DNA of 64,000 nucleotides from Escherichia coli (GTDB lineage: Bacteria; Pseudomonadota; Gammaproteobacteria; Enterobacterales; Enterobacteriaceae): the NCBI RefSeq assembly GCF_041248615.1, contig NZ_CP158426.1; one strand, given 5' to 3'. A program made the position numbers and the translations under genes. The notes under the pieces are model-generated. The model was not told the DNA's origin, made no database searches, and was given only the letters and a program-made list of their open reading frames with translations. How positions within the stretch are numbered: the first letter of the stretch is position 1; each line of letters begins with the position of its first letter. This document shows positions 46,563-63,068 of this stretch, piece by piece.

Positions 46563-47702
46563 TTAGTACAGAGAGTGGGTGTTACGTTCAATATCTTCTT
46601 TGGTGATACGACCGAACATTTTCCAGTAACACCAGGCGGTGTAGAGCAGAATGATCGGTACCAGAACCACCGCAACCCAGGTCATGACGTTAAGCGTCAG
46701 CTGGCTGGATGTTGCATCCCACATTGTCAGACTTGCGTTCATCATGGTGCTGGACGGCATCACAAACGGGAACATTGCGATACCGGCAGTCAGGATGATG
46801 CAGGCCAGCGTCAGGGAGGAGAACACAAACGCCCACGCGGCTTTATCCATACGTGCAGTCAGGATGGTCAGCAGCGGCAGAACCACACCCAGTGCCGGAA
46901 TAGCCCACAGAATTGGCGTGTTGTTGAAGTTAACCAGCCATGCGCCAGCTTCACGAACCACTTCTTTATTCAGCGGGTTAGAGGCTGCGTAATGGTCCAT
47001 TGTCGATTTCACGACATAACCATCGATACCGTACATCACCCATACGCCAGCCAGTGCGAAACAGACCAGTGTCACCAGTGCCGCCACCTGAGCCGTTGCA
47101 CGGGTACGCAGGTGCAGTTCGCCCACGGTACGCATTTGCAGGTAAGTCGCGCCCTGAGTAATGATCATCCCTACGCTCACCACGCCAGCCAGCAGGCCGA
47201 ACGGGTTAAGCAGCTGGAAGAAGTTACCGGTGTAGTACAGACGCAGATATTCATCAACGTTGAACGGTACGCCCTGCAACAGGTTACCGAACGCTACACC
47301 AATCACCAACGGCGGAACGAAGCTACCAATGAAGATGCCCCAGTCCCACATGTTACGCCAGCGGGTTTCTTCAATCTTGGAGCGGTAGTCAAAACCGACC
47401 GGACGGAAGAACAAAGACGCCAGCACGAGGATCATCGCCACATAGAATCCGGAGAACGCAGCGGCATAGACCATCGGCCAGGCAGCAAAGAGTGCGCCGC
47501 CCGCGGTGATCAGCCAAACCTGGTTACCGTCCCAGTGTGGTGCAATGGAGTTAATCATAATTCGACGCTCGGTGTCGTTACGACCGAGGAAACGGGTGAG
47601 CATGCCCACCCCCATGTCGAAACCGTCAGTGACTGCAAAACCAATCAGCAGAACGCCAACCAGCAGCCACCAGATAAAACGCAATACTTCATAATCGATC
47701 AT
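46563..47702 (-). CDS. cydB: Cytochrome bd-I ubiquinol oxidase subunit II
   Basis: 379 aa polytopic membrane protein. Confidence 0.95.
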   Translation of the reverse strand: MIDYEVLRFIWWLLVGVLLIGFAVTDGFDMGVGMLTRFLGRNDTERRIMINSIAPHWDGNQVWLITAGGALFAAWPMVYAAAFSGFYVAMILVLASLFFRPVGFDYRSKIEETRWRNMWDWGIFIGSFVPPLVIGVAFGNLLQGVPFNVDEYLRLYYTGNFFQLLNPFGLLAGVVSVGMIITQGATYLQMRTVGELHLRTRATAQVAALVTLVCFALAGVWVMYGIDGYVVKSTMDHYAASNPLNKEVVREAGAWLVNFNNTPILWAIPALGVVLPLLTILTARMDKAAWAFVFSSLTLACIILTAGIAMFPFVMPSSTMMNASLTMWDATSSQLTLNVMTWVAVVLVPIILLYTAWCYWKMFGRITKEDIERNTHSLY

Positions 47703-47717
47703 TTGACGACTCCTGTC

Positions 47718-49286
47718 TTAGCGTGCCGGCTGAGTAGTCGTGGAAGACTGCTCAAAGTGATAGCGACCGGTTTTCAGGCTGCTTGGGCCGAGGCGTGCAA
47801 ACTTGAACATTAAGAACAATTCTGCCACCAGGAACAGGGTATACAGGCCGCAAATCAGCACCATTGAGAAGATGAGATCGCCTGCGGTCAGTGACGAGTT
47901 CGCCACAGCTGTCGGCAGCACTTCACCGATAGCCCACGGTTGGCGGCCATATTCAGCCACGAACCAGCCCGCTTCTACAGCAATCCACGGCAGCGGAATA
48001 CCGTACAGCGCGGCGCGCAGCAGCCATTTTTTCTCGCCAATGCGGTTGCGGATGACACTCCAGAAAGAGAGCGCGATGATTGCCAGCAGCAGGAAGCCAC
48101 ACGCCACCATGATACGGAACGCGAAGTACAGCGGCGCTACACGCGGAATGGAGTCTTTGGTTGCCTGTTGAATCTGCGCTTCAGTCGCATCAGCCACGTT
48201 TGGCGTATAGCGTTTCAGCAGCAGACCGTAACCGAGGTCTTTCTTCATGCTATTGAACTGGTCACGAACCGCCTGGTCGGTAGAACCAGAACGCAGTTGT
48301 TCGAGCAGAGAGTACGCCTTCATCCCGTTACGAATGCGTTCTTCATGCTGCACCATCAGTTCTTTCAGGCCGATAACTGGAGTATCCACGGAACGCGTTG
48401 CAATGATGCCCAGCGCGTAAGGGATCTGGATCGCAAATTTGTTCGTCTCCTCTTCCTGATCAGGAATGCCGAACAGAGTAAAGGCAGCAGGCGCAGGTTG
48501 CGTTTCCCACTCGGCTTCAATAGCAGCCAGTTTGGTTTTCTGCACGTCGCCCATTTCGTAACCAGATTCATCACCCAGAACAATAACAGACAGAACGGCA
48601 GCCATACCGAAGCTGGCAGCGATAGCAAAGGAGCGTTTAGCGAAGGCGAAGTCACGACCTTTCAGCATATACCATGCGCTGATACCGAGGATGAACATCG
48701 CGCCAGTCACATAACCAGACGCTACAGTGTGAACGAATTTCACCTGAGCAACCGGGTTAAGCACCAGCTCGGAGAAGCTCACCATCTCCATACGCATAGT
48801 TTCAAAGTTGAAATCGGACGCGATTGGGTTTTGCATCCAGCCGTTCGCAACCAGAATCCACAGTGCGGACAGGTTTGAACCGAGCGCCACCAGCCAAGTG
48901 ACACACATATGCTGAACTTTACCCAGACGATCCCAACCGAAGAAGAACAGACCTACAAAGGTGGATTCGAGGAAGAAGGCCATTAGACCTTCGATTGCCA
49001 GCGGCGCACCGAAGATATCCCCTACATAGTGGGAATAGTAAGACCAGTTAGTCCCGAACTGGAACTCCATAGTCAGACCGGTAGCCACACCCAGAGCGAA
49101 GTTGATACCAAACAACTTGCCCCAGAACTTGGTCATATCTTTATAAATCTGTTTGCCGGAAAGGACGTAGACCGTTTCCATAATGGCCAGCAGGAACGCC
49201 ATACCGAGCGTCAGTGGCACAAAAAGGAAGTGGTACATCGCGGTCAAGGCAAACTGTAAGCGCGACAGTTCGACTATATCTAACAT
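47718..49286 (-). CDS. cydA: Cytochrome bd-I ubiquinol oxidase subunit I
   Basis: Track ORF 47718..49289 trimmed to [28 protein letters not shown] (522 aa). Confidence 0.95.
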
Positions 49287-49289
49287 CAT

Positions 49290-50091
49290 GACTCCTTGCT
49301 CATCGCATGAAGACTCCGAGAGTGAACCCCGTTAGAAAGGGTCACACGCATGCCCCAATACAAAATTATTTGCTCGCCTCTATCGTTGCCATTTCATCAA
49401 AAGAGGAAAAGACAATGATAAAAAAGTTACAAATATGTTAATGAATAAACCAAATTGATCCCGTAATTATATTACGCCGCAAAATCCTTACAATAAACAG
49501 GTTTTTATTGAGCAAATTTGCATTTTTCGACAGTGATCAATTTATAGCGAAATTGTCACGATCTCACCAATTTGATCTACGACAATTTATCGTGTTTTGC
49601 AGATTTTTTTCAAGAATTAAAAATTGATTTATATCAAAACCAACCAAATATGTTAATTATGTATAAACCATAGATCATTGGTGATTTTATTGTTAATTTA
49701 TTGTGAAATATTTATGCAACACAATTATTACAATGAAAAGGTATAGATAAAAAACCAGTGTTTTATTTAACAGAACCGCCCTATCCACTTTTTATAATAC
49801 CAATTGATTAGATTAGCCAATTTGTTGCTATTTTACATAACATATTTTTATCAAAGTTAATTGATTGTTGCCTTTATGAGCACCGGCCGTAAGCCCGTTA
49901 TGTTATTGTTTCATTAGTAATAATCACTTAAATGTATCGATGAAACAGGTATGACTTAGCGGGAGTGATTGTTTCTGAGTGAACAGAGACCACTTTCGCC
50001 TGATAAATGAAAAATGAGCGATTTTTGCAAGTTAGTTTTTCTATAGCCGAGTACGCTCAGCGCCTCGCTTGATTACAATGAGGTTGCTGCT
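49290..50091. promoter_or_regulatory. cydAB upstream regulatory region (long AT-rich leader/promoter)
   Basis: About 800 bp non-coding, strongly AT-rich, immediately upstream of cydA; by established knowledge cydAB has a long multi-promoter control region. Individual sites not mapped here. Confidence 0.5.
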
Positions 50092-51036
50092 ATGAGTCCT
50101 GATAATATCAGTTCTGCTGTCAATCGCTTCTCAGGTTGGCCATCTAATGATCCTCTAAAAACAGATAAAGAATCAATGACATCACCCATGACTGTGCAGG
50201 TAATAAAGATGATTGCCGCCATCCTTGATCCACATCGGATAGTCGTTGGAATCGATACACTTTATACAACGCAGCGCGAAACATTTACCTCAGAGAGTCA
50301 ACAGCTCATTGAATCAGCATTGCAAACACTTCATGTGATGAATTTAAATAACCTGGAAACAAATCTCGATGAGGAAGGTCACTATCTGGCTTTTGGATAT
50401 AACGTTGACACTCCTGACAGAATAACCGTTTCTGCTTATAATGAAAAAAAGCCTGGCTGCTATGGTCAATGTCTTTTAATACAGGATGACGAAACAGACT
50501 TATTTAACCTGATAAAAGTTAAAATTTTTGAAGCCAGGCATAATTATGTCGCTCAATTGATGAGCGATCCGGAATTTATGTTCAAATTTAGTTATAGCGC
50601 TCAACAAAATAGATTAGAACCTCATCTTCTGGTTCCCACTTATTTCCCTCTAAAAACAAACGAACCGGTTACGCAAGAGGATGTACTGTTACTTTATCGT
50701 TTCTTTAAAATGGATGGTGATTTTAATATATTAACATCAGATGAATACATGAGTATCATGACACCTCTGATGAAGTGTGAGCGCAGCATCCACGACCACA
50801 ACAGGTATGTGACGGGCAAAGATACCCTTCTTCTGGACTATCCTCCTTCTGGTAACCAGATATATTTCCATATTTTTCCTGACGAATCAGCAACACTAGT
50901 CCTTTATTTTTCAAACAATGACATTGAATGTTTCGTCTTTGAAAGAGATATTCCGAGCCAGTATCGCTTTTTCAAAATGTTTACCAATCTGGCACTGGTT
51001 ATTGATCAGTTAACCGATGCCAATCAAATACTTTAA
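50092..51036 (+). CDS. Hypothetical protein (314 aa), AT-rich orphan gene
   Basis: ORF track. Low GC and codon usage unlike flanking core genes; no recognisable motifs. Confidence 0.45.
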   Translation: MSPDNISSAVNRFSGWPSNDPLKTDKESMTSPMTVQVIKMIAAILDPHRIVVGIDTLYTTQRETFTSESQQLIESALQTLHVMNLNNLETNLDEEGHYLAFGYNVDTPDRITVSAYNEKKPGCYGQCLLIQDDETDLFNLIKVKIFEARHNYVAQLMSDPEFMFKFSYSAQQNRLEPHLLVPTYFPLKTNEPVTQEDVLLLYRFFKMDGDFNILTSDEYMSIMTPLMKCERSIHDHNRYVTGKDTLLLDYPPSGNQIYFHIFPDESATLVLYFSNNDIECFVFERDIPSQYRFFKMFTNLALVIDQLTDANQIL

Positions 51037-51116
51037 TTTTTATATATTCCCTGTGGCAAATATTGCCAAACAATGCCCGGGGATTAATTTTTATTACTCA
51101 CGGAAAGATTTAAATA

Positions 51117-51539
51117 ATGATCCCATCTCAAATCTCTTTCAACACCCTTCCTGTCAATGCAACATACGCTTCAGAGACAACAGTTGACACACAAAAATTC
51201 TCTGACATCCTCTACTCAGCGGGGTGTTCCCTAAAGGATCTGGCTTATCTGAGCAGATGTCTGGCATCAATACATCCGACTATCGCCAAAAACATTTATG
51301 AAACAGAAAATCTCAGCGATCAAAAATTACTGCATATTGATTGCCGTAGTACAAATGAAATCAAGATAAATATCTTTTTTGGTCAACAACGAGAAGGATT
51401 AATTGAAATTAATTCTGACACTGTCATTTTTCCGATATTGTCTTCATTAATTGACTCCGCCATTTCTAAATTTCAACACCAAATCCCCGTTAACGGTTCA
51501 GTAAATCCTGACCTATTGTATGAGGATTATACTGATTAA
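51117..51539 (+). CDS. Hypothetical protein (140 aa), AT-rich orphan gene
   Basis: ORF track. Low GC; follows the 314 aa ORF on the same strand. Confidence 0.4.
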   Translation: MIPSQISFNTLPVNATYASETTVDTQKFSDILYSAGCSLKDLAYLSRCLASIHPTIAKNIYETENLSDQKLLHIDCRSTNEIKINIFFGQQREGLIEINSDTVIFPILSSLIDSAISKFQHQIPVNGSVNPDLLYEDYTD

Positions 51540-52085
51540 ATCCACCCAGTCGCGAAAATGGCCTGCGTTATTGCCAGACGTAATAAAACTTTTGATTAAC
51601 GTTACTCGTACTGGTAGCACCTTCATGTACTTTTCTTTTTTACGAAAAATCAAAAGAGCTAACAAAGGTCATAATTCGCATGAATCATTAATTATTTGTT
51701 ATTTTCAACATTATTTTTACATTAAGCAGAGATGAATTGCAGTGAAATTCGACTTAACTTTTATGAAATGCATTTACTCATGGCTAAAGCCACGTCACAA
51801 AAATGCAAATTAGAAGTTGATCACAATTATCTCAATACATCAAATCAAGTTAATTTTAAAAATTTAACATTCATGACATTAGTTGACATAACACACTGAA
51901 TTAAAATGAGAATTTGAAAACACACTTTAAACAATCATTTCCCGAAAGACATTTTGAAAATAGATCAATTGCAACATTACGGTCAGATAAAGACACTCCT
52001 GTGATATTAAACCTGTGCCGTTATGAGCGGCCATAAATACGACGTGTGTAACTTATTTTACTCTCTGTCTTACAAAGGATTACCC

Positions 52086-52535
52086 ATGAAGAAAGCAACA
52101 CTTGTGATTGGCGTTATTGGCGCGGACTGCCATGCAGTAGGCAATAAAGTTCTGGACCGCGTTTTTAGCAACCATGACTTCAGAGTTATTAATCTGGGCG
52201 TAATGGTCAGCCAGGACGAATATATTGATGCTGCCATTGAAACTGGTGCTGACGCGATTGTCGTCTCCTCTATCTATGGGCATGGCGATATCGATTGTCT
52301 GGGCATGCGCGAACGCTGCATCGAGCGTGGGCTGGGTAACATCCTGCTCTATGTGGGCGGTAACCTGGTGGTCGGAAAACATGACTTCGCTGACGTGGAA
52401 ACCAAGTTCAAAGAGATGGGATTTGATCGCGTCTTTTCCCCAAGTCATGACTTAGAAGATGTTTGTCAGCTGATGGCCCACGATATCAACCAACGTCATA
52501 ACGTTGATACTCGCATTCTTGAAGAGGCAATCTGA
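52086..52535 (+). CDS. glmS: Glutamate mutase sigma subunit (methylaspartate mutase S chain, B12-binding)
   Basis: Track ORF 52023..52535 trimmed to [24 protein letters not shown] (149 aa), a cobalamin-binding DxHxxG-type motif (ADCHAVGNK). Confidence 0.8.
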
Positions 52536-53923
52536 TGCAAATCGTCTCTGTCGATATTGGTTCGACGTGGACCAAAGCAGCCCTCTTCGCCCGGGAGGGG
52601 GACGCGTTAACGTTGGTTAACCACGTACTGACCCCAACCACCACCCATCATCTGGCGAAGGGGTTTTTCTCCAGCCTGAACCTGGTGTTAAACGTAGATA
52701 ATGCCCTCCCCCTGTTTAACAGCGGTGAGGTTACATTGAAGTATTCCTCCTCTGCCAAAGGTGGGCTGGCGGTTGCCGCAATGGGATTGGTGCCTTCTAT
52801 CACCCTGGAAACCGCGAAAGTAACCGCTCACTCTGCGGGGGCTAAAATTGCGCAATATTACGCCTACAAGCTGAACCGCCGTGATATCCAGGCACTGGAA
52901 GAAACGCAGCCCGATATTCTCTTGTTCACCGGCGGCACCGACGGCGGAGAAGAAAGCTACGGCCTGAATAACGCCCGTGTGCTGGCAGAATCCAAACTCG
53001 ACTGCGCCATTATTTATGCCGGAAACCGGGATATTCAGGACGAGGTGCAGGAGATCCTAGGGCATAAAGACCTGACCATCGTCGACAACGTTCTGCCCGA
53101 TCTTGACCATCCGAACCCTTTAGCCGCACGCCAGGCTATCTGCGACATATTCCTTAAACGCATCGTTAAAGGGAAAGGGCTGGATGTCGTTGTTGATAAA
53201 ACAGGCGAAGAACCAATGCCGACACCATGGACGGTCTTTGAACTGGTTAAGGCAATCAGTAACGTCGATCACAGCTGGAAAGAGTTCATGCTGATCGACA
53301 TGGGCGGCGCAACCACCGATGTCTATTCCGCCTGTGCCAACACGCTCTCGCCCGACACCGTTTTACACGGCGTACCGGAACCCTTCGTGAAACGGACGGT
53401 GGAAGGCGATCTGGGAATGCGCGTCTCGGCAATGGTGGTTGGTGAAAGTGCGAAAGAGTTAGTCAATGTGAATTTTGCTCAGCAACCCGCACAGCTGGAC
53501 GCTTTTTATCATTACCTCCGTCATCTAGTCGCTCATCCCGACTACTTACCCGCGAATGCAGAAGAAAAATATTTCGATACCGTCCTGGCCGGACTGTGTG
53601 TGGGTTATGCCACCGAAAGACATGCGGGCACCAAAAAAGAGGTCTGCACCTGCGTCGGCAATGTCGATTTACAGATGGGACGTGACCTGACAACCGTGCG
53701 TAAAGTCGTCGGATCCGGCGGATGGCTCTCGCGTGCCAGTCAGTTCGATATGCATCACTGGTTGAAATACCGCGAGTTAAACGACGACGGTAAACGCATT
53801 CTCTTACCGACCGAATTTGAATATTACCGCGATTCCCGGGGGCTATTACCACTGCTGGCAAACGTCGCCAGAGTCGATCCGCTGGCCGCCGCGCGCACCA
53901 GTATTCAATGCTTAACCCTATAA
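52535..53923 (+). CDS. glmL: Glutamate mutase accessory protein (MutL/GlmL-like)
   Basis: 462 aa located between the S and E subunit genes, the arrangement known from Clostridium glutamate mutase operons. Confidence 0.7.
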   Translation: MQIVSVDIGSTWTKAALFAREGDALTLVNHVLTPTTTHHLAKGFFSSLNLVLNVDNALPLFNSGEVTLKYSSSAKGGLAVAAMGLVPSITLETAKVTAHSAGAKIAQYYAYKLNRRDIQALEETQPDILLFTGGTDGGEESYGLNNARVLAESKLDCAIIYAGNRDIQDEVQEILGHKDLTIVDNVLPDLDHPNPLAARQAICDIFLKRIVKGKGLDVVVDKTGEEPMPTPWTVFELVKAISNVDHSWKEFMLIDMGGATTDVYSACANTLSPDTVLHGVPEPFVKRTVEGDLGMRVSAMVVGESAKELVNVNFAQQPAQLDAFYHYLRHLVAHPDYLPANAEEKYFDTVLAGLCVGYATERHAGTKKEVCTCVGNVDLQMGRDLTTVRKVVGSGGWLSRASQFDMHHWLKYRELNDDGKRILLPTEFEYYRDSRGLLPLLANVARVDPLAAARTSIQCLTL

Positions 53924-53941
53924 CAATTAAGGCTGCAATCA

Positions 53942-55387
53942 ATGGAACTTCGAAATAAGAAATTAACCCATGACGAATTCATGACCGAGCGGCAACAGGT
54001 ACTGAAAACCTGGGAAACCGGCAAGGATGTTGAAAACTTTGAAGATGGCGTTAAATACCAACAAACCATTCCTGAGCATAAACGCTTCTCTCTTGCGCTG
54101 TTGAAAGCAGACAAGGAAGGTAAAACCCTTAGCCAACCGCGCGCAGGTGTGGCGCTGATGGACGAACACATCGAACTACTGAAAACACTACAAGAAGAGT
54201 GCGATCTGCTGCCGAGCACTATCGATGCATATACCCGTCTGAATCGGTACGAAGAAGCGGCTGTAGGGATTAAAAAATCCATCGAAGCCGGAACCTCTAA
54301 ACTGAACGGTTTGCCGGTAGTTAACCATGGCGTCGCAGCTTGCCGTCGCCTCACCGAAACCCTGCAAAAACCGCTACAGATCCGCCACGGCACGCCAGAT
54401 GCGCGTCTGCTGGCTGAAATCTCAATGGCCAGCGGCTTTACCAGTTATGAAGGCGGTGGCATTTCCTACAACATTCCGTATGCCAAACGCGTAACGCTGG
54501 AAAAATCGATCCGCGACTGGCAGTACTGCGACCGTTTAATGGGGATGTATGAAGAACACGGGATCCGCATCAACCGCGAACCGTTTGGCCCACTAACGGG
54601 TACGCTGATCCCGCCGTTTATCTCGCACTCTATCGCGATAATCGAAGGCTTGCTGGCGCTGGAACAGGGTGTGAAATCTATCACCGTTGGTTATGGACAG
54701 GTCGGCAGCCTGACGCAGGATGTTGCGGCGATCCAGTCTCTGCGTGAACTTGCACACGAATATTTTCAGAGCTATGGCTATACCGACTATGAATTAAGTA
54801 CCGTGTTTCACCAGTGGATGGGCGGCTTTCCGGAAGACGAATCGAAAGCGTTCGCTATTATCTCCTGGGGCGCAGCCGTCGCGGGGATGTCTGGTGCCAC
54901 CAAAGTCATCACCAAAAGTCCGCACGAAGCCTGGGGCATCCCGACTGCCGCTGCCAACATTCAGGGGCTGAAAGCCTCCCGCCAGATGCTCAACATGGTC
55001 AACGAGCAGAAATTCCCGCCGTGCCCTGCGGTTGAACTGGAAATTGAACTGATTAAGAGCGAGGTTCGCGCGGTACTGAATAAAGTGTTCGAACTGGGTA
55101 ATGGTGATATTGCGCGCGGTACGGTGCTGGCATTTGAAGCGGGCGTACTGGATGTGCCGTTTGCGCCAGCCGCCTGCAACGCGGGCAAAATTCTTCCGGT
55201 CCGTGACAACACCGGCGCGATACGCGTACTGGAAGCCGGAGCCGTTCCATTGCCAAAAGATATTCTCGACCTCCACCACGATTACGTTGCTGAACGCGCA
55301 CGCTTTGAAGGACGCCAACCGACATTCCAGATGGTTGTAGATGACATCAATGCTGTATCCCACAGTAAATTAATAGGAAGACCATAA
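53942..55387 (+). CDS. glmE: Glutamate mutase epsilon subunit (methylaspartate mutase E chain)
   Basis: 481 aa; size and position match GlmE. Confidence 0.8.
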   Translation: MELRNKKLTHDEFMTERQQVLKTWETGKDVENFEDGVKYQQTIPEHKRFSLALLKADKEGKTLSQPRAGVALMDEHIELLKTLQEECDLLPSTIDAYTRLNRYEEAAVGIKKSIEAGTSKLNGLPVVNHGVAACRRLTETLQKPLQIRHGTPDARLLAEISMASGFTSYEGGGISYNIPYAKRVTLEKSIRDWQYCDRLMGMYEEHGIRINREPFGPLTGTLIPPFISHSIAIIEGLLALEQGVKSITVGYGQVGSLTQDVAAIQSLRELAHEYFQSYGYTDYELSTVFHQWMGGFPEDESKAFAIISWGAAVAGMSGATKVITKSPHEAWGIPTAAANIQGLKASRQMLNMVNEQKFPPCPAVELEIELIKSEVRAVLNKVFELGNGDIARGTVLAFEAGVLDVPFAPAACNAGKILPVRDNTGAIRVLEAGAVPLPKDILDLHHDYVAERARFEGRQPTFQMVVDDINAVSHSKLIGRP

Positions 55388-56628
55388 TGAAAATAAAACA
55401 GGCTCTGTTCACCGCTGGCTACTCCTCATTCTATTTCGATGACCAGCAGGCGATAAAAAACGGAGCGGGTCATGACGGCTTTTTTTATACCGGGGAGCCA
55501 GTAACACAGGGGTTTAACGCCGTACGTCAGGCCGGGGAGTGCGTATCGGTACAGTTGATTCTGGAAAACGGCGCGGTCGCCGTAGGTGACTGTGCTGCCG
55601 TACAGTATTCCGGGGCAGGTGGTCGCGATCCACTGTTCCTCGCAGAGCACTTTATTCCGTTCCTCAACGACCATATCAAGCCATTACTGGTAGGCCGCGA
55701 TGTGGATGCTTTCCTGCCGAATGCCCGTTTCTTCGACAAATTGCGTATTGACGGCAACTTGCTACATACCGCCGTGCGCTACGGATTATCACAGGCGCTG
55801 CTTGATGCTACCGCGCTGGCAACCGGCCGTCTGAAAACTGAAGTAGTTTGCGATGAATGGCAGTTGCCACGCGTGGCGGAATCCATTCCATTATTTGGTC
55901 AGAGCGGTGACGATCGATATATCGCCGTCGATAAGATGATCCTTAAGGGCATCGACGTGCTGCCCCATGCACTGATTAATAACGTCGAAGAGAAACTAGG
56001 CTTTAAAGGTGAAAAACTGCGCGAATATGTCCGCTGGCTGTCGGATCGTATTCTGAGCAAGCGCACCAGCGCACGCTACCACCCTACCCTGCACATCGAT
56101 GTATACGGCACTATCGGTCTGATCTTCGATATGGATCCGCTTCGCTGTGCGCAATACATCGCCAGCCTGGAAAAAGAAGCGCAAGGCCTGCCGCTCTACA
56201 TTGAAGGGCCGGTCGATGCCGGTAACAAGCCCGATCAAATTCGCCTGCTGACCGCGATTACCAAAGAGCTGACGCGCCTCGGTTCCGGCGTGAAAATTGT
56301 GGCCGATGAATGGTGTAACACCTACCAGGATATTGTTGATTTTACTGATGCCGCCAGTTGCCACATGGTGCAAATCAAAACCCCGGATCTGGGCAGTATT
56401 CACAACATCGTCGATGCGGTTCTTTACTGCAACAGCCACAGCATGGAAGCGTACCAGGGCGGCACCTGCAATGAAACTGATGTCAGTGCCCGCACCTGTG
56501 TCCACGTCGCCCTTGCCGCTCGCCCTATGCGTATGCTGGTAAAGCCAGGGATGGGCTTTGACGAAGGCCTCGATATCGTCTTCAACGAAATGAATCGTAC
56601 TATCGCGCTGTTGCAGGCTAAGGATTAA
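55387..56628 (+). CDS. 3-methylaspartate ammonia-lyase (enolase superfamily)
   Basis: 413 aa MKIKQALFTAGYSSFYFDDQQAIKNGAGHDGF...; size and N-terminus match methylaspartase as remembered. Start overlaps the glmE stop. Confidence 0.8.
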   Translation: MKIKQALFTAGYSSFYFDDQQAIKNGAGHDGFFYTGEPVTQGFNAVRQAGECVSVQLILENGAVAVGDCAAVQYSGAGGRDPLFLAEHFIPFLNDHIKPLLVGRDVDAFLPNARFFDKLRIDGNLLHTAVRYGLSQALLDATALATGRLKTEVVCDEWQLPRVAESIPLFGQSGDDRYIAVDKMILKGIDVLPHALINNVEEKLGFKGEKLREYVRWLSDRILSKRTSARYHPTLHIDVYGTIGLIFDMDPLRCAQYIASLEKEAQGLPLYIEGPVDAGNKPDQIRLLTAITKELTRLGSGVKIVADEWCNTYQDIVDFTDAASCHMVQIKTPDLGSIHNIVDAVLYCNSHSMEAYQGGTCNETDVSARTCVHVALAARPMRMLVKPGMGFDEGLDIVFNEMNRTIALLQAKD

Positions 56629-56631
56629 CAA

Positions 56632-58002
56632 ATGGCTCGTTCTTTTAAAGTCTTATCGCCAACGGCAATCCTCGGGTATGGATTCCCGGAAGAGAGCTTC
56701 CGTAAAGCGATGGCAGAATCGCCCGATCTGATCGCCGTTGATGCAGGCTCTTCCGATCCTGGCCCCCACTACCTCGGGGCGGGCAAACCGTTTACCGATC
56801 GCGCAGGGGTCAAGCGCGATCTGCGCTATATGATCACCGCAGGCGTGCAAAATAATATACCGGTGGTGATCGGAACGGCTGGCGGTTCTGGTGCCGCACC
56901 ACACCTGGAGTGGTGCCGAGAAATAATTCATGAGATTGCCCAGGAAGAGCACCTCTCGTTCTCAATGGCGCTGATCCCGGCAGACGTTGACAAAGCCATC
57001 GTCCACCAGGCGCTGGATAACGGCAAAATCACGGCGCTGGAGTTTGTCCCGCCGTTAACCCACGACGCGATTGACGAAAGTACGTATATCGTTGCGCAAA
57101 TGGGCATCGAACCCTTCCAGCGGGCGCTGAAAGAAGGCGCGCAAGTGGTGCTGGGCGGGCGCGCTTACGACCCGGCCTGCTTTGCTGCGCTTCCGATCAT
57201 GCAAGGCTTTGATGAAGGTCTGGCGCTGCATTGTGGGAAAATCCTTGAATGCGCGGCAATCGCCGCAACGCCCGGCTCAGGCTCTGACTGTGCGATGGGC
57301 ATCATTGATGACAACGGCTTTACGCTGAAGACATTTAATCCGAAGCGTAAATTTACCGAAACGTCAGCGGCTGCACACACACTGTATGAGAAATCCGATC
57401 CCTACTTCCTGCCTGGACCTGGCGGCGTGTTGAACCTGAAAGGCTGCACATTTAAAGCGGTCAATGACAGCGAAGTGTACGTCAGCGGTTCTAAGCATGA
57501 AGAAACGCCGTATGCCCTGAAACTGGAAGGTGCGCGACGAGTGGGCTTCCGCTGTCTGACCATCGCAGGAACGCGCGACCCGATCATGATCGCCGGGATC
57601 GATAAAATCATCGATGAAGTCAAAACCAGCGTTTCGCGTAACCTGTCGCTCGACGATGACAGCATTCGCATCAATTTCCACCTGTACGGCAAAAACGGGG
57701 TGATGGGAGACCATGAACCGATGCAAACTGCCGGGCATGAGCTGGGGATTGTCCTTGATGTAGTTGCACCGACCCAGGAAATTGCCAACAGCGTTTGCTC
57801 GCTGGTGCGCTCTACCATGCTGCACTACGGCTATGAAAACCGCATCGCTACCGCAGGTAATCTGGCGTTCCCGTTCTCCCCTTCTGATATCCAGGGCGGG
57901 CCGGTATACGAATTTTCCATATATCACCTGATTGAAGCCAACGACGCTCTGCGTTTTGATTTCCATATTGAACAGGTGACGCCAGAAGGAGTTCAGGCAT
58001 GA
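56632..58002 (+). CDS. DUF1446 (AtuA-like) family protein, function unknown
   Basis: 456 aa ORF inside the mesaconate operon; family assignment from memory of AtuA-like sequences, unverified. Confidence 0.45.
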   Translation: MARSFKVLSPTAILGYGFPEESFRKAMAESPDLIAVDAGSSDPGPHYLGAGKPFTDRAGVKRDLRYMITAGVQNNIPVVIGTAGGSGAAPHLEWCREIIHEIAQEEHLSFSMALIPADVDKAIVHQALDNGKITALEFVPPLTHDAIDESTYIVAQMGIEPFQRALKEGAQVVLGGRAYDPACFAALPIMQGFDEGLALHCGKILECAAIAATPGSGSDCAMGIIDDNGFTLKTFNPKRKFTETSAAAHTLYEKSDPYFLPGPGGVLNLKGCTFKAVNDSEVYVSGSKHEETPYALKLEGARRVGFRCLTIAGTRDPIMIAGIDKIIDEVKTSVSRNLSLDDDSIRINFHLYGKNGVMGDHEPMQTAGHELGIVLDVVAPTQEIANSVCSLVRSTMLHYGYENRIATAGNLAFPFSPSDIQGGPVYEFSIYHLIEANDALRFDFHIEQVTPEGVQA

Positions 58003-58316
58003 AACAGTCAATTGTCTCACTGGCGCAAGTCATTCGTTCGAAAAATGCCGGACCTTACGAACTGGTTTTAGATATTTTATTTAAAACCAAAGAAAACTAT
58101 GAGCGTGTCAAATCATCAGGGCAATTAACCCCAGAACTGATCGCGCGCTTATATCATGTTGAACCTGACTTTATTCATCGTATTGTCTGGTTTGATCCTT
58201 CTAACGCAGTAAAAATCGTCATGCCACGAGATATTATCTCCGGGAATGTAGGTGACAATGATGTCTATGGTGCACAGCAACATGCACCTTTATTAAATAT
58301 GAGTTTCGATTTGTAA
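57999..58316 (+). CDS. DUF4387-like small protein, function unknown
   Basis: 105 aa; start overlaps the DUF1446-like stop (ATGA), suggesting translational coupling and a two-protein unit. Confidence 0.4.
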   Translation: MKQSIVSLAQVIRSKNAGPYELVLDILFKTKENYERVKSSGQLTPELIARLYHVEPDFIHRIVWFDPSNAVKIVMPRDIISGNVGDNDVYGAQQHAPLLNMSFDL

Positions 58317-58476
58317 AAATCCGAATACTTTTAGCCAACTGACATCCCGTCACTTATTGCAGTTCAACACTTCAGCTATTTGTAAGGTTGTAATAGCAGG
58401 TAGATGCCTGAATCTCTATTCGGGCATCTACTTCTCCTGATTCTGATTTATCGCCGTGCACCTGATGGAGGAAAAA

Positions 58477-59757
58477 ATGAAGAAAATAAGTTTAACCACG
58501 ATGATTCTTTTGGCGCTGGTACTTGGAATGATTATCGGCGTAGTGCTCAATAACACTGCTTCACCGGAAACCGAAAAACTCTATGCGCAAGAAATATCGA
58601 TATTCACGACGATTTTCTTACGACTGATAAAAATGATTATCGCTCCGTTAGTGGTCTCTACCCTGGTGGTAGGTATAGCTAAAATGGGCGATGCCAAAGC
58701 CCTTGGTCGTATTTTTTCTAAAACACTCTTTTTATTTATTTGCGCCTCATTGCTGTCAATTGCCTTAGGCTTGATAACAGTAAATTTCTTCATGCCAGGC
58801 ACAGGAATTAATTTTGTTGCACACGGAGCCGAAACCACCGGAGTGGTCGCGTCAGAACCCTTTACGCTAAAAGTATTTATTTCGCATGCTTTCCCCACCA
58901 GCATTGTCGATGCCATGGCGCACAATGAAATTTTGCAAATCGTGGTGTTCTCAATTTTCCTCGGCTGTAGCCTGACGGCGATTGGCGAGAAAGGCAGCGC
59001 CATCGTTCACGCCTTAGATTCGCTGGCACATGCCATGTTAAAGCTCACTGGCTACGTCATGCTCTTCGCTCCCCTGACCGTATTCGCTGCTATTTCAGCA
59101 TTGATTGCTGAACGAGGACTGGCAGTTATGGTGAGCGCCGGGATCTTTATGGGTGAATTTTATTTCACCATGTTATTACTTTGGGTGCTGCTTATCGGTC
59201 TGGCCATCGTTTATGTTGGCCCCTGCATCAGACGCCTGACCCGCGCCCTTTCGGAACCCGCCCTGCTGGCATTTACCACATCCAGTTCTGAAGCGGCTTT
59301 TCCGGGAACGCTTGAAAAACTGGAGCAATTTGGCGTTTCCCCCAAAATTGCCAGCTTTGTCTTACCCATTGGCTACTCATTTAATCTTGTTGGATCAATG
59401 GCCTACTGCTCCTTCGCCACAGTTTTCATCGCCCAGGCCTGCAATATCCATTTATCCATCGGTGAGCAAATCACCATGCTGTTGATCCTGATGTTGACCT
59501 CGAAAGGAATGGCTGGCGTACCACGCGCCTCAATGGTGGTTATCGCCGCCACGCTCAACCAGTTCAATATTCCGGAAGCGGGGCTGATCTTGCTGATGGG
59601 CGTTGATCCGTTCCTTGATATGGGGCGTTCCGCGACAAACGTCATGAGCAACGCAATGGGCGCTGCGATGGTGAGTCGGTGGGAAGGCGAACATTTCGGC
59701 GAGGGTTGTCGGGGTAAAGCATTAAAACCCAATGAATCGAACGTTGCTCTGCCCTGA
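58477..59757 (+). CDS. Dicarboxylate/amino acid:cation symporter (GltP/DAACS family), likely glutamate or C4/C5-dicarboxylate uptake
   Basis: Track ORF 58456..59757 trimmed to ATG 58477 with RBS ggagg (426 aa). Polytopic with conserved DAACS-like motifs. Confidence 0.75.
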   Translation: MKKISLTTMILLALVLGMIIGVVLNNTASPETEKLYAQEISIFTTIFLRLIKMIIAPLVVSTLVVGIAKMGDAKALGRIFSKTLFLFICASLLSIALGLITVNFFMPGTGINFVAHGAETTGVVASEPFTLKVFISHAFPTSIVDAMAHNEILQIVVFSIFLGCSLTAIGEKGSAIVHALDSLAHAMLKLTGYVMLFAPLTVFAAISALIAERGLAVMVSAGIFMGEFYFTMLLLWVLLIGLAIVYVGPCIRRLTRALSEPALLAFTTSSSEAAFPGTLEKLEQFGVSPKIASFVLPIGYSFNLVGSMAYCSFATVFIAQACNIHLSIGEQITMLLILMLTSKGMAGVPRASMVVIAATLNQFNIPEAGLILLMGVDPFLDMGRSATNVMSNAMGAAMVSRWEGEHFGEGCRGKALKPNESNVALP

Positions 59758-59864
59758 GGGGGATCTTAAGCAATCAGAAGCCAATGACTACGCATTTTTA
59801 TAAGCCGGATCATGAAGTTAGACGGCAATTAAGTAAAACTAACGTTTAAGGTGAAAAGTGAAAT

Positions 59865-61517
59865 ATGTCCAAACCATTTATCTGGCAAGAACCGTTTCTA
59901 CAAAATAAAGACGGTACAGAATATACATTAATTAGCGATCAACATATTACAGTAACGGAATTAGACGGCGAAGAAGTAATAAAAATCGCTCCTGAAGCAT
60001 TAACGCTGCTTGCCCGGCAGGCATTTTATGAAGCCTCTTTTTTCTTACGTTCCGCTCATTTGCAACAGGTCGCCAGCATTCTTAACGATCCGCAGGCCAG
60101 TAGTAATGATAAATACGTTGCGTTGCAGTTATTACGTAATGCTGAAGTCTCAGCAAAAGGGGTATTACCCAACTGTCAGGATACCGGCACCGCAACTATT
60201 GTTGCCAGTAAAGGGCAACAGATATGGACGGGAGGTAACGACGCTGAAGCCTTAAGCAAAGGCATTTACAGTACTTTCCAGGAAAATAACCTGCGCTTTT
60301 CACAAAATGCGCCGCTGGATATGTACACCGAAGTCAATACGCAAACCAATCTCCCGGGGCAGATTGATATCAGCGCTGTCGCTGGTGATGAGTACCATTT
60401 TCTCTGTATTAATAAAGGGGGCGGCTCTGCCAATAAAGCCGCGCTTTATCAGGAAACCAAATCCTTATTGCAACCAGAAAAACTGACCGCATTTTTAATC
60501 GAAAAAATGAAATCGCTGGGCACCGCTGCCTGCCCGCCTTACCACATCGCCTTTGTCGTCGGAGGGCTTTCAGCCGATCAAACCTTAAAAGTTGCCAAGC
60601 TGGCCTCAACGAAATATTACGACAATTTGCCCACCAGCGGAAACGAGCAAGGACAAGCATTCCGTGATATTGAGCTGGAAAAAGTATTGCTCGAGGCCAG
60701 TCAGCAATTTGGTATTGGTGCGCAATTTGGAGGTAAATATTTCGCTCATGATATTCGCGTCATTCGTCTGCCGCGTCACGGTGGCTCCTGCCCGATAGCT
60801 ATGGCGCTCTCCTGTTCTGCCGATCGCAATATCAAAGCAAAAATTAACAAGCACGGTATCTGGCTGGAAAAACTCGAACACAATCCGGGGCAATATATTC
60901 CAGCCTCACTGCGGGAAGAAAATCACGCGCAACATGTACAACTGGATCTAAACCGTCCGTTGCGTGACGTGATGCAGGATCTCGCCAGATTACCGGTAGG
61001 CACCCGCGTGTCGTTAAGTGGTCCCATCGTAGTGGCACGCGATATCGCCCACGCCAAAATAAAAGCGCGGCTGGATAACGCCGAACCGATGCCGGATTAC
61101 CTGAAGCATCATATTGTCTATTACGCTGGCCCGGCGAAAACACCGGAGAACATGGCCTGCGGTTCACTGGGTCCAACCACGGGCGGTCGAATGGACGGTT
61201 ATGTCGATACCTTCCAGGCGGCTGGCGGCAGTCTGGTGATGTTATCGAAAGGTAACCGCAGCCAGCAGGTCACCGATGCCTGTCACAAACATGGTGGCTT
61301 CAATCTGGGTAGTATTGGCGGTGCAGCTGCGTTACTGGCGCAAGAATATGTCAAAAGTCTGCGTTGCCTGGAATACCCGGAGCTGGGTATGGAAGCGGTG
61401 TGGATGATGGAAGTGGAAAATCTGCCCGCATTCATCCTGGTAGATGATAAAGGCAATAATTTCTTTAGTCAGTTTGAGCAGCAACACCGCTGCGCCAGTT
61501 GCCCTGCGGGACATTAA
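59865..61517 (+). CDS. fumD: Class I fumarate hydratase family enzyme (mesaconase/fumarase FumD-type)
   Basis: 550 aa FumA/FumB-like Fe-S hydratase (C-terminal CxxC-containing region). Its context with glutamate mutase and methylaspartase implies mesaconate hydration. Confidence 0.75.
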
Positions 61518-61526
61518 GGAAAATGA

Positions 61527-62129
61527 ATGGAAGCGCGAATTTCAACTGAACGGCATGTGCAGCGCCAGCAGAAATTGAAGGAACAGGTCGATACGCGCGT
61601 CGCGGCGGCGATAGAGAAAAAAGGGATTTTGATTGTTTTCACCGGCAATGGCAAAGGGAAATCCACTGCCGCGTTTGGTACTGTGACGCGCGCGGTGGGT
61701 CATGGCAAAACGGTGGGGGTTGCGCAGTACATCAAGGGGCAATGGGACAACGGCGAATACAACCTTCTCCAGCCGCTGGGGGTTGAGTTTCATATTATGG
61801 GAACCGGTTTTACCTGGGAGACACAGAACCGGCAAGCGGATATCGACGCGGCGAAAGAGGTCTGGTCGGAAAGCAAACGGATGCTGGCTGACAAGCGTTA
61901 CGACTTAGTGGTGCTTGATGAGCTGACCTATATGCTGGCTTACCATTATCTGGACACCGAAGAAGTGATCGCTTCTCTGCAAAACCGCCCGGCACAACAA
62001 AGTGTCATTGTCACCGGACGCGGTTGCCACAGTCAGATATTAAAAATGGCGGATACGGTCAGCGAAATCCGCCCCGTCAAACATGCTTTTGATAACGGCA
62101 TTCAGGCGCAGCCGGGTATCGACTGGTAA
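61527..62129 (+). CDS. Cob(I)alamin adenosyltransferase (CobA/BtuR-type)
   Basis: 200 aa with P-loop GNGKGKSTAAFG; highly similar to E. coli BtuR from memory. Likely supplies adenosylcobalamin for glutamate mutase. Confidence 0.8.
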   Translation: MEARISTERHVQRQQKLKEQVDTRVAAAIEKKGILIVFTGNGKGKSTAAFGTVTRAVGHGKTVGVAQYIKGQWDNGEYNLLQPLGVEFHIMGTGFTWETQNRQADIDAAKEVWSESKRMLADKRYDLVVLDELTYMLAYHYLDTEEVIASLQNRPAQQSVIVTGRGCHSQILKMADTVSEIRPVKHAFDNGIQAQPGIDW

Positions 62130-62162
62130 TAACTGCGCCTGGCATCCCGCCAGGCGCAGGTT

Positions 62163-63068
62163 TTACATCTCCTGCGGTACGACCGATTTCGCCAGCAACC
62201 ATTCACGAAATTGCTGCAAGTGCGGCGAGTCAGACTTCTCTTCCTGCCACGTCATAATAAAACGATTACCGGTACGAATAGGCACATCACAGGGAATCAC
62301 CATATCGCCACTATCCAAATCATGTTGAATAGCGAACCGTGGTAACAGCGCCACGCCGAGATTAGAGCGCACGGCGGCAATCAGCATTGAAAGCAAATCG
62401 AAACGTGGTCCGTTATTGACCAGCGGACTGCTAACGCCAGATAAAGCAAACCACTCTTCCCAGCCAGTAATACGGGTGCTTTGATGCAGAAGTGGTAACT
62501 CAGTAAGCAGTTCTGCCACTGACAGTTTTTGATCGGACATTGCAAGCAAACTGCCGCTGCATACCGGCAAAATCTCCTCATCAAAGAGATATTCTACTTC
62601 CGCCCAGGGCGCGCAAAAATTTTCGCGCATAATGACAGCATCGTACTCCCGATTAAGAAAATCGCCGTTATTAGCTAAAGAATGAATATTAACAATAATA
62701 TCGGGATGTAACTTTGTGAATTCATGTAAATTTGGGATTAACCAGTGGGTACTAAAAGTAGGATTAACGGCAAGTTCAATAACCTGAACCGTAGGCTGCC
62801 AGGTCATAATGGTATTGGTATCGCGTTCCAGCTTATTTAATGTTTCTTTTACTATCCCCAGGTAATACTTCCCTGCATCATTAAGAAAAATACGTTTTTT
62901 AGAGTGTGAAAATAACGGAGTATGTAAAAATTCCTCCAGCGCACTCACTTGTCTGAATACAGCACTTTGGGTTAACGCTAACTCCTCTGCCGCTCTGGTA
63001 TAACTTTCATGACGTGCGACGACCTCAAAAGTCACCAGCAGCTCCGTTTTAGGTATTTTTCCTCGCAT
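62163..63068 (-). CDS. LysR-family transcriptional regulator
   Basis: 301 aa with N-terminal LysR HTH (ESYTRAAEELALTQSAVFRQVSALE). Convergent with the operon. Confidence 0.8.
   Translation of the reverse strand: MRGKIPKTELLVTFEVVARHESYTRAAEELALTQSAVFRQVSALEEFLHTPLFSHSKKRIFLNDAGKYYLGIVKETLNKLERDTNTIMTWQPTVQVIELAVNPTFSTHWLIPNLHEFTKLHPDIIVNIHSLANNGDFLNREYDAVIMRENFCAPWAEVEYLFDEEILPVCSGSLLAMSDQKLSVAELLTELPLLHQSTRITGWEEWFALSGVSSPLVNNGPRFDLLSMLIAAVRSNLGVALLPRFAIQHDLDSGDMVIPCDVPIRTGNRFIMTWQEEKSDSPHLQQFREWLLAKSVVPQEM

What the first reader, a model, noticed from the sequence alone, without database searches (positions are those of the whole stretch)
50092..51539. Two AT-rich orphan ORFs at the cydA-proximal edge of the island
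ORFs of 314 and 140 aa lie in strongly AT-rich sequence with codon usage unlike the flanking core genes and unlike the rest of the island, preceded and followed by AT-rich non-coding DNA (49300..50090 and 51540..52080). The proteins have no signal peptide, TM segment or recognisable catalytic motif. The composition suggests separate horizontal acquisition and probable H-NS silencing; such genes in enterobacteria are often secreted effectors, toxin/immunity components or regulators.
Basis: partly seen in the sequence, partly recalled or inferred. Interest (0 to 1): 0.6.

Follow-up and report, generated by a model that had tools for sequence, protein, structure and literature searches.

The report
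Two Escherichia-only orphan genes beside cydA
Two AT-rich genes next to the cytochrome bd operon are real, selectively maintained protein-coding genes found only in Escherichia, with no detectable relatives, no predictable fold and almost no expression in the laboratory, so they are typical lineage-restricted orphan genes and not a recognisable effector, toxin or regulator.

Summary
ORF314 (50092-51036, +) and ORF140 (51117-51539, +) exist. Their GC is 0.37-0.38 (GC3 0.34-0.35), against 0.48-0.55 (GC3 0.51-0.65) for cydAB and the glm genes. AT-rich spacers flank them. They are the E. coli O157 Sakai genes ECs_0767 and ECs_0766, annotated everywhere as hypothetical proteins.

Both are coding. 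The frames are intact across E. coli, and ORF314 is intact in most E. albertii at 65% identity. dN/dS is 0.15-0.6, significantly below 1. Random substitution keeps the long frame open in only 0.065% of trials.

They occur in 1135 of 5426 complete E. coli genomes, always at this site, and the glutamate-mutase island shows the same count. E. albertii keeps ORF314 alone, without ORF140 or the island. Some lineages have lost them through a frameshift, ERIC insertions or an IS4 insertion.

Pfam, NCBIfam, PADLOC, PHROGs, PDB sequences, 5.8 billion clustered proteins and an exhaustive HMMER scan of 1.84 billion representatives gave no relative outside Escherichia/Shigella. AlphaFold models are unreliable (pLDDT 43-46) and fold searches return noise. 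Published EDL933 RNA-seq shows near silence in 11 conditions.

Verdict: ordinary, vertically inherited orphan genes, probably H-NS-silenced, biochemical function unknown. The effector, toxin and regulator ideas have no support.

The parts
49290..50091 (.). 802-bp AT-rich divergent intergenic region between cydA (- strand) and ORF314 (+ strand). Its cydA-proximal part is the conserved cydAB control region.
   Evidence: GC 0.33. Bases 49290-49662 match K-12-type genomes at about 81%, and 49290-49927 match B2-type genomes at about 90%. A perfect FNR consensus TTGATTTATATCAA lies at 49624-49637. No consensus sigma-70 promoter pointing into ORF314 was found.
50010..50091 (+). Conserved block immediately upstream of ORF314. 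It includes the Shine-Dalgarno GAGG (50080-50083), 8 nt before the ATG.
   Evidence: In a five-way alignment of three E. coli, E. albertii and a cryptic-clade Escherichia, this block is nearly invariant while the DNA 5' of it is not. A predicted hairpin pairing CCUC with the SD is not supported: z-score -0.57 and 0 compensatory pairs.
50092..51036 (+). ORF314, equivalent to Sakai ECs_0767 (the window's own allele is WP_001305591.1): a 36-kDa acidic soluble protein and an Escherichia-restricted orphan.
   Evidence: ORF. Annotation. dN/dS 0.33-0.61, Fisher p 6e-8 against neutrality. Only Escherichia/Shigella relatives. No family hit. AlphaFold model pLDDT 43.
51037..51116 (+). 80-bp spacer between the two ORFs, with no terminator-like site, so co-transcription is possible.
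   Evidence: Sequence. Terminator scan. GC 0.31.
51117..51539 (+). ORF140, equivalent to Sakai ECs_0766 (the window's own allele is WP_000613113.1): a 15.7-kDa acidic soluble protein and an Escherichia-restricted orphan. Its core (residues 25-117) is conserved and its tails are variable.
   Evidence: ORF. dN/dS 0.15-0.55 overall, 0.17 in the core and about 2 in residues 118-140. Relatives only in Escherichia/Shigella; degraded in E. albertii; frameshifted variants exist. AlphaFold model pLDDT 46.
51540..52085 (.). 546-bp AT-rich spacer separating ORF140 from glmS, the first gene of the methylaspartate-pathway island (annotated start 52086).
   Evidence: GC 0.32. glmS annotation in the identical strain. 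No Rfam match.

Best explanation
ORF314 and ORF140 are genuine protein-coding genes restricted to the genus Escherichia (ORFans). They lie in a 2.8-kb AT-rich tract that continues from the H-NS-regulated cydAB control region. They were probably already at this site, divergent from cydA, in the common ancestor of E. coli, E. albertii and the cryptic clades. They have since been inherited vertically, kept under moderate purifying selection, and lost or broken in several lineages. They encode small, acidic, soluble alpha/beta proteins with no catalytic signature, so I infer they act by binding a partner and not as enzymes. ORF314 is the self-sufficient unit because it persists alone in E. albertii, and ORF140 is dispensable. 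They are transcriptionally near-silent in laboratory conditions. The most likely cause is H-NS-type xenogeneic silencing spreading over the AT-rich tract, so expression would need a counter-silencing signal. Shown here: coding status, selection, distribution, synteny, absence of homologues, low expression. Inferred: H-NS silencing, a binding rather than catalytic role, ancestral presence. They are not part of the conserved glutamate-mutase pathway module, although within E. coli the pair and that module were found in the same number of genomes.
Against: No experiment or dataset examined here shows H-NS on this DNA in a carrier strain. The mapping of Z-numbers to the two ORFs is uncertain: four ORFs were annotated in EDL933 between glmS and cydA. 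The RNA-seq depth was low, and no protein-level evidence was found (one search returned nothing). dN/dS of 0.4, together with repeated pseudogenisation, shows that selection is weak and may have lapsed in some lineages. 'Binding rather than catalysis' rests only on the absence of motifs in a family too shallow to reveal them: four sequences at 65% identity or more, with most columns invariant. Vertical inheritance is inferred from synteny and divergence, not from a phylogeny.
Confidence: 0.6

Rival explanations
1. The ORFs are relics that no longer have a function. They were once useful, are now silent, and are decaying slowly. Their apparent purifying selection would reflect past selection, not present selection.
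For: Near-zero transcription in 11 conditions. Independent inactivations: a frameshift in the E. albertii type strain; two ERIC insertions plus a 306-bp deletion in Escherichia sp. MOD1-EC7003; an IS4 insertion in one E. coli (H65); frameshifted ORF140 variants and Shigella fragments. dN/dS is several-fold higher than in neighbouring genes.
Against: Both frames are intact in all six E. coli loci examined and are annotated as two proteins in 39 of 40 sampled records, out of about 1134 genomes that span up to about 8% nucleotide divergence. ORF314 is full-length in most E. albertii variants. dN/dS is significantly below 1 even between close E. coli alleles. The ORF140 core has dN/dS 0.17.
Confidence: 0.15
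2. One or both proteins are substrates (effectors) of a type III secretion system (LEE or ETT2). Their polar, disordered N-termini would be the secretion signal, and ORF140 might serve as a chaperone.
For: The first 30 residues of both proteins are 47-50% Ser/Thr/Asn/Pro/Gln and are predicted unstructured. ORF140 is small and acidic (140 aa, pI 4.65), like class I chaperones, and is adjacent to a larger gene. The genes are AT-rich and silent in vitro, as many effector genes are. Known carriers O157:H7, O145:H28 and E. albertii have a LEE (the LEE status is from general knowledge).
Against: There is no similarity to any known effector or chaperone family in Pfam, NCBIfam, PDB or 1.84 billion proteins. 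ORF140's predicted order of elements (24 disordered residues, three helices, three strands, one helix) does not match the CesT/SycE pattern, which starts with a helix at the N-terminus (general knowledge; the model is low confidence). The genes are not in a prophage or integrative element, where most E. coli non-LEE effectors lie. Carriers include urinary and environmental isolates such as the window's own 100%-identical urine isolate and SMS-3-5, which to my knowledge lack a LEE. An N-terminal composition like this is expected from AT-rich coding DNA anyway.
Confidence: 0.08
3. The pair is a two-gene conflict module, either an anti-phage defence system or a toxin-immunity/toxin-antitoxin pair, lodged in a variable hot spot.
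For: It is a two-gene AT-rich cassette with no known domains. It sits in a chromosomal gap (sucD-cydA) that holds at least four alternative cargos in different Escherichia lineages. The ORF140 C-terminal tail shows an excess of amino-acid changes (12.5 non-synonymous vs 1.5 synonymous).
Against: There is no PADLOC or PHROG hit. The pair is absent from phages and true plasmids. It shows strict single-site, single-genus, apparently vertical distribution, not the patchy cross-taxon spread typical of defence and toxin modules. ORF314 survives without ORF140 in E. albertii, which is hard to reconcile with an obligate toxin-antidote pair. The ORFs are 80 bp apart, not overlapping, and there is no nuclease, NTPase or protease motif.
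Confidence: 0.07
4. The proteins are accessory or regulatory factors of the adjacent methylaspartate (glutamate mutase) pathway, or of cytochrome bd.
For: In E. coli the pair and the glm genes were each found in 1135 genomes. ORF314 is always divergent from cydA and shares its oxygen-responsive control region, which includes a perfect FNR box.
Against: The glm/fumD cluster occurs in many other enterobacteria (PMC4682846), yet the ORFs have no homologue outside Escherichia. E. albertii keeps ORF314 without the glm genes. Composition differs sharply from both neighbours, and a 546-bp spacer separates ORF140 from glmS. Most E. coli, including K-12, run cydAB without these genes. Adjacency to cydA carries little information for a gene found at only one locus.
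Confidence: 0.08

Closest known systems
Lineage-restricted ORFan genes of E. coli (short, AT-rich, fast-evolving genes without homologues, as described by Daubin and Ochman 2004; recalled from memory, not checked here)
   Same: AT-rich relative to the genome, no homologues outside a narrow clade, dN/dS several-fold above core genes but below 1, and low expression.
   Different: At 314 aa, ORF314 is long for an ORFan. The pair is not associated with a prophage or any mobile element, and it appears old, having been present before the E. coli/E. albertii split.
H-NS-silenced xenogeneic DNA in enterobacteria (AT-rich islets repressed by H-NS and relieved by counter-silencers such as Ler or ArcA)
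   Same: A 2.8-kb tract with GC of about 0.33-0.38 in a roughly 51% GC genome. It is contiguous with the cydAB promoter region, where H-NS repression and ArcA antagonism are documented in K-12. It is near-silent in RNA-seq.
   Different: H-NS occupancy and de-repression were not tested for this tract, and no counter-silencer is known.
Non-LEE type III effector genes with adjacent class I chaperones
   Same: AT-rich, silent in vitro, polar disordered N-termini, and a large gene plus a small acidic protein gene side by side.
   Different: No sequence or predicted-structure relationship to any effector or chaperone family, not prophage-borne, and present in strains without a LEE.
O157 methylaspartate-pathway island (glmS-glmL-glmE, methylaspartate ammonia-lyase, fumD), PMC4682846
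   Same: Physically adjacent, and found in the same number of E. coli genomes (1135 each).
   Different: Different base composition, a separate transcription unit, absent beside glm clusters of other genera, and retained without the island in E. albertii.

Membership tests
Lineage-restricted, H-NS-type silenced ORFan genes | Real coding sequence (frame conserved, dN/dS below 1) | tested here: met
   dN/dS 0.15-0.61, Fisher p 6e-8 to 3e-3, and the frame survives 0.065% of random-substitution trials.
Lineage-restricted, H-NS-type silenced ORFan genes | No homologues outside a narrow clade | tested here: met
   only Escherichia/Shigella. The two hits in other genera are 99-100% identical contigs in metagenome bins and are contamination.
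Lineage-restricted, H-NS-type silenced ORFan genes | AT-rich relative to host core genes | tested here: met
   GC 0.37-0.38 and GC3 0.34-0.35, against 0.48-0.55 and 0.51-0.65.
Lineage-restricted, H-NS-type silenced ORFan genes | Low or absent transcription in standard conditions | tested here: met
Lineage-restricted, H-NS-type silenced ORFan genes | H-NS occupancy and de-repression in an hns mutant | not testable with these tools
   Indirect only: H-NS represses the adjacent cydAB promoter in K-12. The Sakai H-NS/Pch ChIP supplement held no entry for these genes.
Type III effector / class I chaperone pair | Homology to a known effector or to a CesT/SycE-type chaperone | tested here: not met
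   no hit.
Type III effector / class I chaperone pair | Chaperone fold (helix, three strands, helix, two strands, helix, starting at the N-terminus) | tested here: inconclusive
Type III effector / class I chaperone pair | T3SS-dependent secretion or translocation, and co-occurrence with a T3SS | not testable with these tools
   N-terminal composition is compatible but non-specific. Carriers include urine and environmental isolates.
Anti-phage defence or toxin-antitoxin/immunity module | Match to a known defence, toxin or antitoxin model | tested here: not met
Anti-phage defence or toxin-antitoxin/immunity module | Patchy, horizontally spread distribution, or carriage on mobile elements | tested here: not met
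   one genus and one chromosomal site, not in phages or true plasmids.
Anti-phage defence or toxin-antitoxin/immunity module | Obligate pairing of the two genes | tested here: not met
   E. albertii keeps a full-length ORF314 with ORF140 degraded.
Methylaspartate-pathway (glm/fumD) gene cluster | Conserved next to glm genes across the taxa that carry the cluster | tested here: not met
   The cluster is reported in Klebsiella, Citrobacter, Salmonella, Yersinia and others, but the ORFs have no homologue there. The counts match only within E. coli.
Methylaspartate-pathway (glm/fumD) gene cluster | Same transcription unit and same composition | tested here: not met
   A 546-bp spacer with GC 0.32 separates them, and ORF GC3 is 0.35 against 0.51-0.61 in the glm genes.

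The most novel reading that the evidence does not exclude
ORF314, with or without ORF140, founds a new Escherichia-specific protein family with a new fold. It would be expressed only when H-NS silencing of the shared cydA control region is lifted, for example by ArcA/FNR at low oxygen in the gut, and it would contribute to host colonisation, either as an unrecognised secreted effector or as a modulator of a host-cell or bacterial partner.
Probability: 0.1. Interest if true: 0.55.

Novelty: new member of a known kind. Interest (0 to 1): 0.27.

Why it matters
About a fifth of complete E. coli genomes carry these two genes, including O157:H7, O145:H28 and many extra-intestinal isolates, and most E. 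albertii carry ORF314. The genes have been annotated as hypothetical for 25 years. This work shows they are truly coding, selectively maintained, genus-restricted and beyond the reach of current homology and structure-prediction methods. That makes them a clean, small test case for what old bacterial orphan genes do and how they are kept while silent. Their position on the H-NS/ArcA/FNR-controlled cydAB regulatory region suggests a concrete condition to test, which is oxygen limitation or hns deletion. As it stands, the finding adds no new mechanism and is a routine example of AT-rich orphan genes.

Tried and rejected
1. Family searches with Pfam, NCBIfam, PADLOC and PHROGs returned nothing at or below E 0.1.
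2. Remote homology: a word-indexed search of 5.8 billion clusters for both proteins and for an ORF140 profile, and an exhaustive HMMER scan of 1.84 billion representatives with an ORF314 profile. These returned only the same proteins and their fragments.
3. PDB sequence search returned nothing.
5. I tested whether ORF140 and the two halves of ORF314 are diverged copies of one helix, three-strand, helix module, as suggested by the predicted secondary structure and by a recurring motif (ORF314 LMKCERSIHD..RYVTGKDTL, compare VIKMIAAILDPHRIVVGIDTL in ORF314 and LSRCLASIHP in ORF140). BLASTP gave E 2.3 and hhalign gave E 0.04-0.19 with probability about 1%. This is not significant, so I rejected it as unproven.
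6. Mobile-element origin: there was no phage hit, and the three 'plasmid' hits are mislabelled chromosomes of 0.73-4.9 Mb.
7. RNA elements: there was no Rfam match in 49200-52200. The conserved 5' block upstream of ORF314 folds no better than shuffles (z -0.57) and shows no covariation.
8. Promoter and terminator scans were at background level, with no consensus promoter facing ORF314.
9. Literature: full-text search for the locus tags found nothing relevant. The supplements of an EHEC translatome paper, an H-NS/Pch ChIP paper, a Ler-regulon paper and a bovine-gut transcriptome paper held no entry for these genes.
10. The reading 'non-coding AT-rich DNA' is rejected.

Full report
**Observation**

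The window holds cydB and cydA on the minus strand (46563-49289). Next come an 802-bp spacer and two plus-strand ORFs: ORF314 at 50092-51036 and ORF140 at 51117-51539. A 546-bp spacer follows, and then the glutamate-mutase genes glmS, glmL and glmE.

GC falls to 0.27-0.41 across about 49200-52200, against 0.48-0.59 on either side. By codon position, ORF314 has GC1/2/3 of 0.48/0.31/0.35 and ORF140 has 0.43/0.35/0.34. GC3 is 0.62-0.65 in cydAB and 0.51-0.61 in the glm genes. The three spacers have GC 0.31-0.33.

ORF314 has a GAGG Shine-Dalgarno 8 nt before its ATG. That element is conserved in all five Escherichia sequences aligned. Both products are acidic (pI 4.7), have no TM-grade hydrophobic stretch, and have no Pfam domain.

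**Are they genes?**

Yes. The window is 100% identical over 49290-52100 to a Norwegian urinary E. coli isolate, where both ORFs are annotated as hypothetical proteins. In O157:H7 Sakai they are ECs_0767 (314 aa) and ECs_0766 (140 aa).

- Against alleles 2-8% divergent in E. coli, and against a 65%-identical orthologue in E. albertii, ORF314 keeps exactly 314 codons with no stop or indel.
- dN/dS is 0.33-0.61 for ORF314 and 0.15-0.55 for ORF140. For comparison it is 0.01 for cydA and 0.07-0.16 for glmS.
- The deficit of non-synonymous change is significant: Fisher p is 6e-8, 3e-5 and 3e-3.
- With the 215 observed E. coli/E. albertii differences placed at random, the frame stays open in 0.065% of 20,000 trials. 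The real differences are skewed to third codon positions.
- Selection is uneven. ORF314 residues 41-80 have pN/pS 0.15. The ORF140 core (25-117) has 0.17, and its C-terminal tail has about 2, although on few sites.

**Distribution and history**

The ORF pair is present in 1135 of 5426 complete E. coli genomes, once per genome and always at this locus. Of 40 records sampled across the ranking, 39 are annotated with two hypothetical proteins and one has an IS4 insertion. The glm genes were also found in 1135 genomes, so in E. coli the ORFs and the island appear to travel together.

The sucD-cydA gap is a replacement hot spot:
- K-12-type genomes carry mngRAB there.
- B2 strain LF82 carries a TPR protein there.

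Outside E. coli, an E. albertii contig has cydA, ORF314 (65% identity), a 258-aa gene and sucD, with no glm island. ORF140 there is reduced to short remnants. At least 12 distinct full-length 314-aa variants exist in E. albertii, but the type strain has a frameshift that splits the ORF into 209 and 108 aa. In Escherichia sp. MOD1-EC7003 the glm operon is intact while both ORFs are wrecked by two ERIC elements and a 306-bp deletion. Shigella dysenteriae retains only fragments.

Synonymous divergence between E. coli and E. albertii is 0.53 for ORF314 and 0.28 for strongly expressed cydA. Together with the fixed synteny, this fits presence in the common ancestor and vertical descent with repeated loss, and does not fit recent transfer.

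**What are they related to?**

Nothing detectable.
- NCBIfam, PADLOC, PHROGs and Pfam gave no hit.
- Searches of 5.8 billion protein clusters returned only Escherichia/Shigella sequences.
- An exhaustive HMMER scan of 1.84 billion representatives with an ORF314 profile returned 14 hits, all fragments of the same protein.
- PDB sequences gave nothing. Phage genomes gave nothing. The three 'plasmid' hits are chromosomes filed as plasmids.
- A scan of one genome per GTDB species found only E. albertii, a cryptic-clade Escherichia, and two metagenome bins labelled Collinsella and Citrobacter. Those bin contigs are 99-100% identical to E. coli and are contamination.
- AlphaFold2 models are unreliable, with mean pLDDT 43 and 46.

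The predicted secondary structure hints at helix, three-strand, helix modules, twice in ORF314 and once in ORF140. Sequence and profile comparisons between these parts are not significant, so I do not claim a repeat architecture.

**Relation to the neighbours**

Most of the 802-bp spacer is the cydAB control region, not island DNA. Its first 373 bp match K-12-type genomes at about 81%, and its first 638 bp match B2 genomes at about 90%. It contains a perfect FNR box at 49624-49637. In K-12 this region is repressed by H-NS and de-repressed by ArcA (Govantes et al. 2000, as cited in PMC3708157). The AT-rich tract that starts there runs uninterrupted through both ORFs to glmS.

The glm/fumD cluster is reported in many enterobacterial genera (PMC4682846), but the ORFs have no relatives in those genera. 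They also differ sharply from the cluster in composition, and ORF314 persists without the cluster in E. albertii.

**Expression**

- cydA ranges from 2 to 212.

I could not resolve which Z-number corresponds to which ORF. No consensus sigma-70 promoter faces ORF314. The supplements of four other EHEC omics papers held nothing on these genes. The data fit transcriptional silencing. H-NS as the cause is an inference from composition and from the neighbouring cydAB promoter.

**Most likely explanation**

These are old, genus-restricted orphan genes encoding small acidic soluble proteins. They are kept under moderate purifying selection, are silent in the laboratory (probably through H-NS), and are dispensable enough to be lost repeatedly. 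ORF314 is the autonomous unit, and ORF140 is an optional companion. I infer a non-catalytic, partner-binding role, with low confidence, because nothing enzymatic is visible.

**Rivals**

- A now functionless relic: supported by the pseudogenes and the silence, and opposed by intact frames in about 1100 genomes and by dN/dS below 1.
- A type III effector, possibly with a chaperone: only the polar N-termini and the gene layout speak for it. It has no homology, no prophage context, and is present in strains without a LEE.
- A defence or toxin-immunity cassette: it sits in a hot spot, but it matches no model, is not mobile, is not patchy, and ORF314 survives alone.
- An accessory of the glm pathway or of cytochrome bd: the genome counts match in E. 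coli only, and other genera and K-12 contradict it.

**Novelty and interest**

The ORFs are already annotated as hypothetical proteins in more than a thousand genomes. What is added here is evidence that they are coding, selected, genus-restricted and without detectable relatives or predictable fold, together with their evolutionary history. That makes them a further example of AT-rich lineage-restricted ORFans, not a new kind of system. Interest is modest. It would rise if the genes prove to be expressed on relief of silencing at low oxygen and to affect colonisation or secretion.

Noticed in passing
window 46563-63068; loci L002, L006, L010, L012: The sucD-cydA gap is a replacement hot spot with at least four alternative contents in Escherichia: mngRAB (HS/K-12 type), a TPR-repeat protein (LF82, B2), ORF314+ORF140 plus the glm/fumD island (this window, O157), and ORF314 plus a 258-aa gene with a signal-peptide-like N-terminus (E. 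albertii).
   Followed up: partly
window 49290-49927: The cydAB upstream control region itself comes in diverged haplotypes that track the neighbouring cargo. K-12-type genomes match only the first 373 nt, at about 81%. B2-type genomes match 638 nt at about 90%. cydA itself encodes the identical protein (WP_000884361.1) in all six annotated E. coli loci. A perfect FNR consensus TTGATTTATATCAA lies at 49624-49637.
   Followed up: partly
window 50010-50210: An 82-nt block just upstream of the ORF314 start is nearly invariant between E. coli, E. albertii and a cryptic clade, while the DNA 5' of it is not. The first 40 codons of ORF314 also have unusually low synonymous divergence (pS 0.15, against 0.31-0.53 in later blocks). 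A predicted hairpin that would mask the Shine-Dalgarno has no statistical or covariation support (z -0.57, 0 compensatory pairs). The cause of the conservation is unexplained.
   Followed up: partly
window 51468-51539 (ORF140 codons 118-140): The C-terminal tail of ORF140 shows 12.5 non-synonymous against 1.5 synonymous differences between two E. coli allele classes (pN/pS about 2), while the core has 0.17. The numbers are too small to call positive selection.
   Followed up: no
L011 6349-6469 and 7091-7218 (Escherichia sp. MOD1-EC7003): Two ERIC (enterobacterial repetitive intergenic consensus) elements are inserted into ORF314 and at ORF140, with 22/22 and 19-21/22 matches to the ERIC1R/ERIC2 primer sequences. 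A 306-bp deletion accompanies them, while the adjacent glm operon stays intact.
   Followed up: yes
L008 (JAIJJM010000209.1) and L009 (DXKH01000067.1): Metagenome-assembled genomes labelled Collinsella sp. and Citrobacter sp. contain contigs whose ORF314 product is 99-100% identical to the window's. This is almost certainly E. coli contamination of the bins.
   Followed up: no
PLSDB records CP088669.1, NZ_CP141089.1, NZ_CP134663.1: Records of 0.73-4.9 Mb filed as plasmids carry this chromosomal locus. They are chromosomes or chromosome fragments mislabelled as plasmids.
   Followed up: no
NZ_LT903847.1 4109900-4110409 (E. coli O127:H6): This genome retains only a 510-bp remnant of glmS (97.5% identity) and lacks the rest of the glm genes searched. 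That suggests the island was once present in this lineage and was later deleted.
   Followed up: no
window 52023-52535: The mechanical ORF for glmS starts at an ATG at 52023 (170 aa), but RefSeq annotates the start at 52086 (149 aa, MKKATL...). The 21-codon upstream extension lies in AT-rich spacer DNA and is probably not translated.
   Followed up: no
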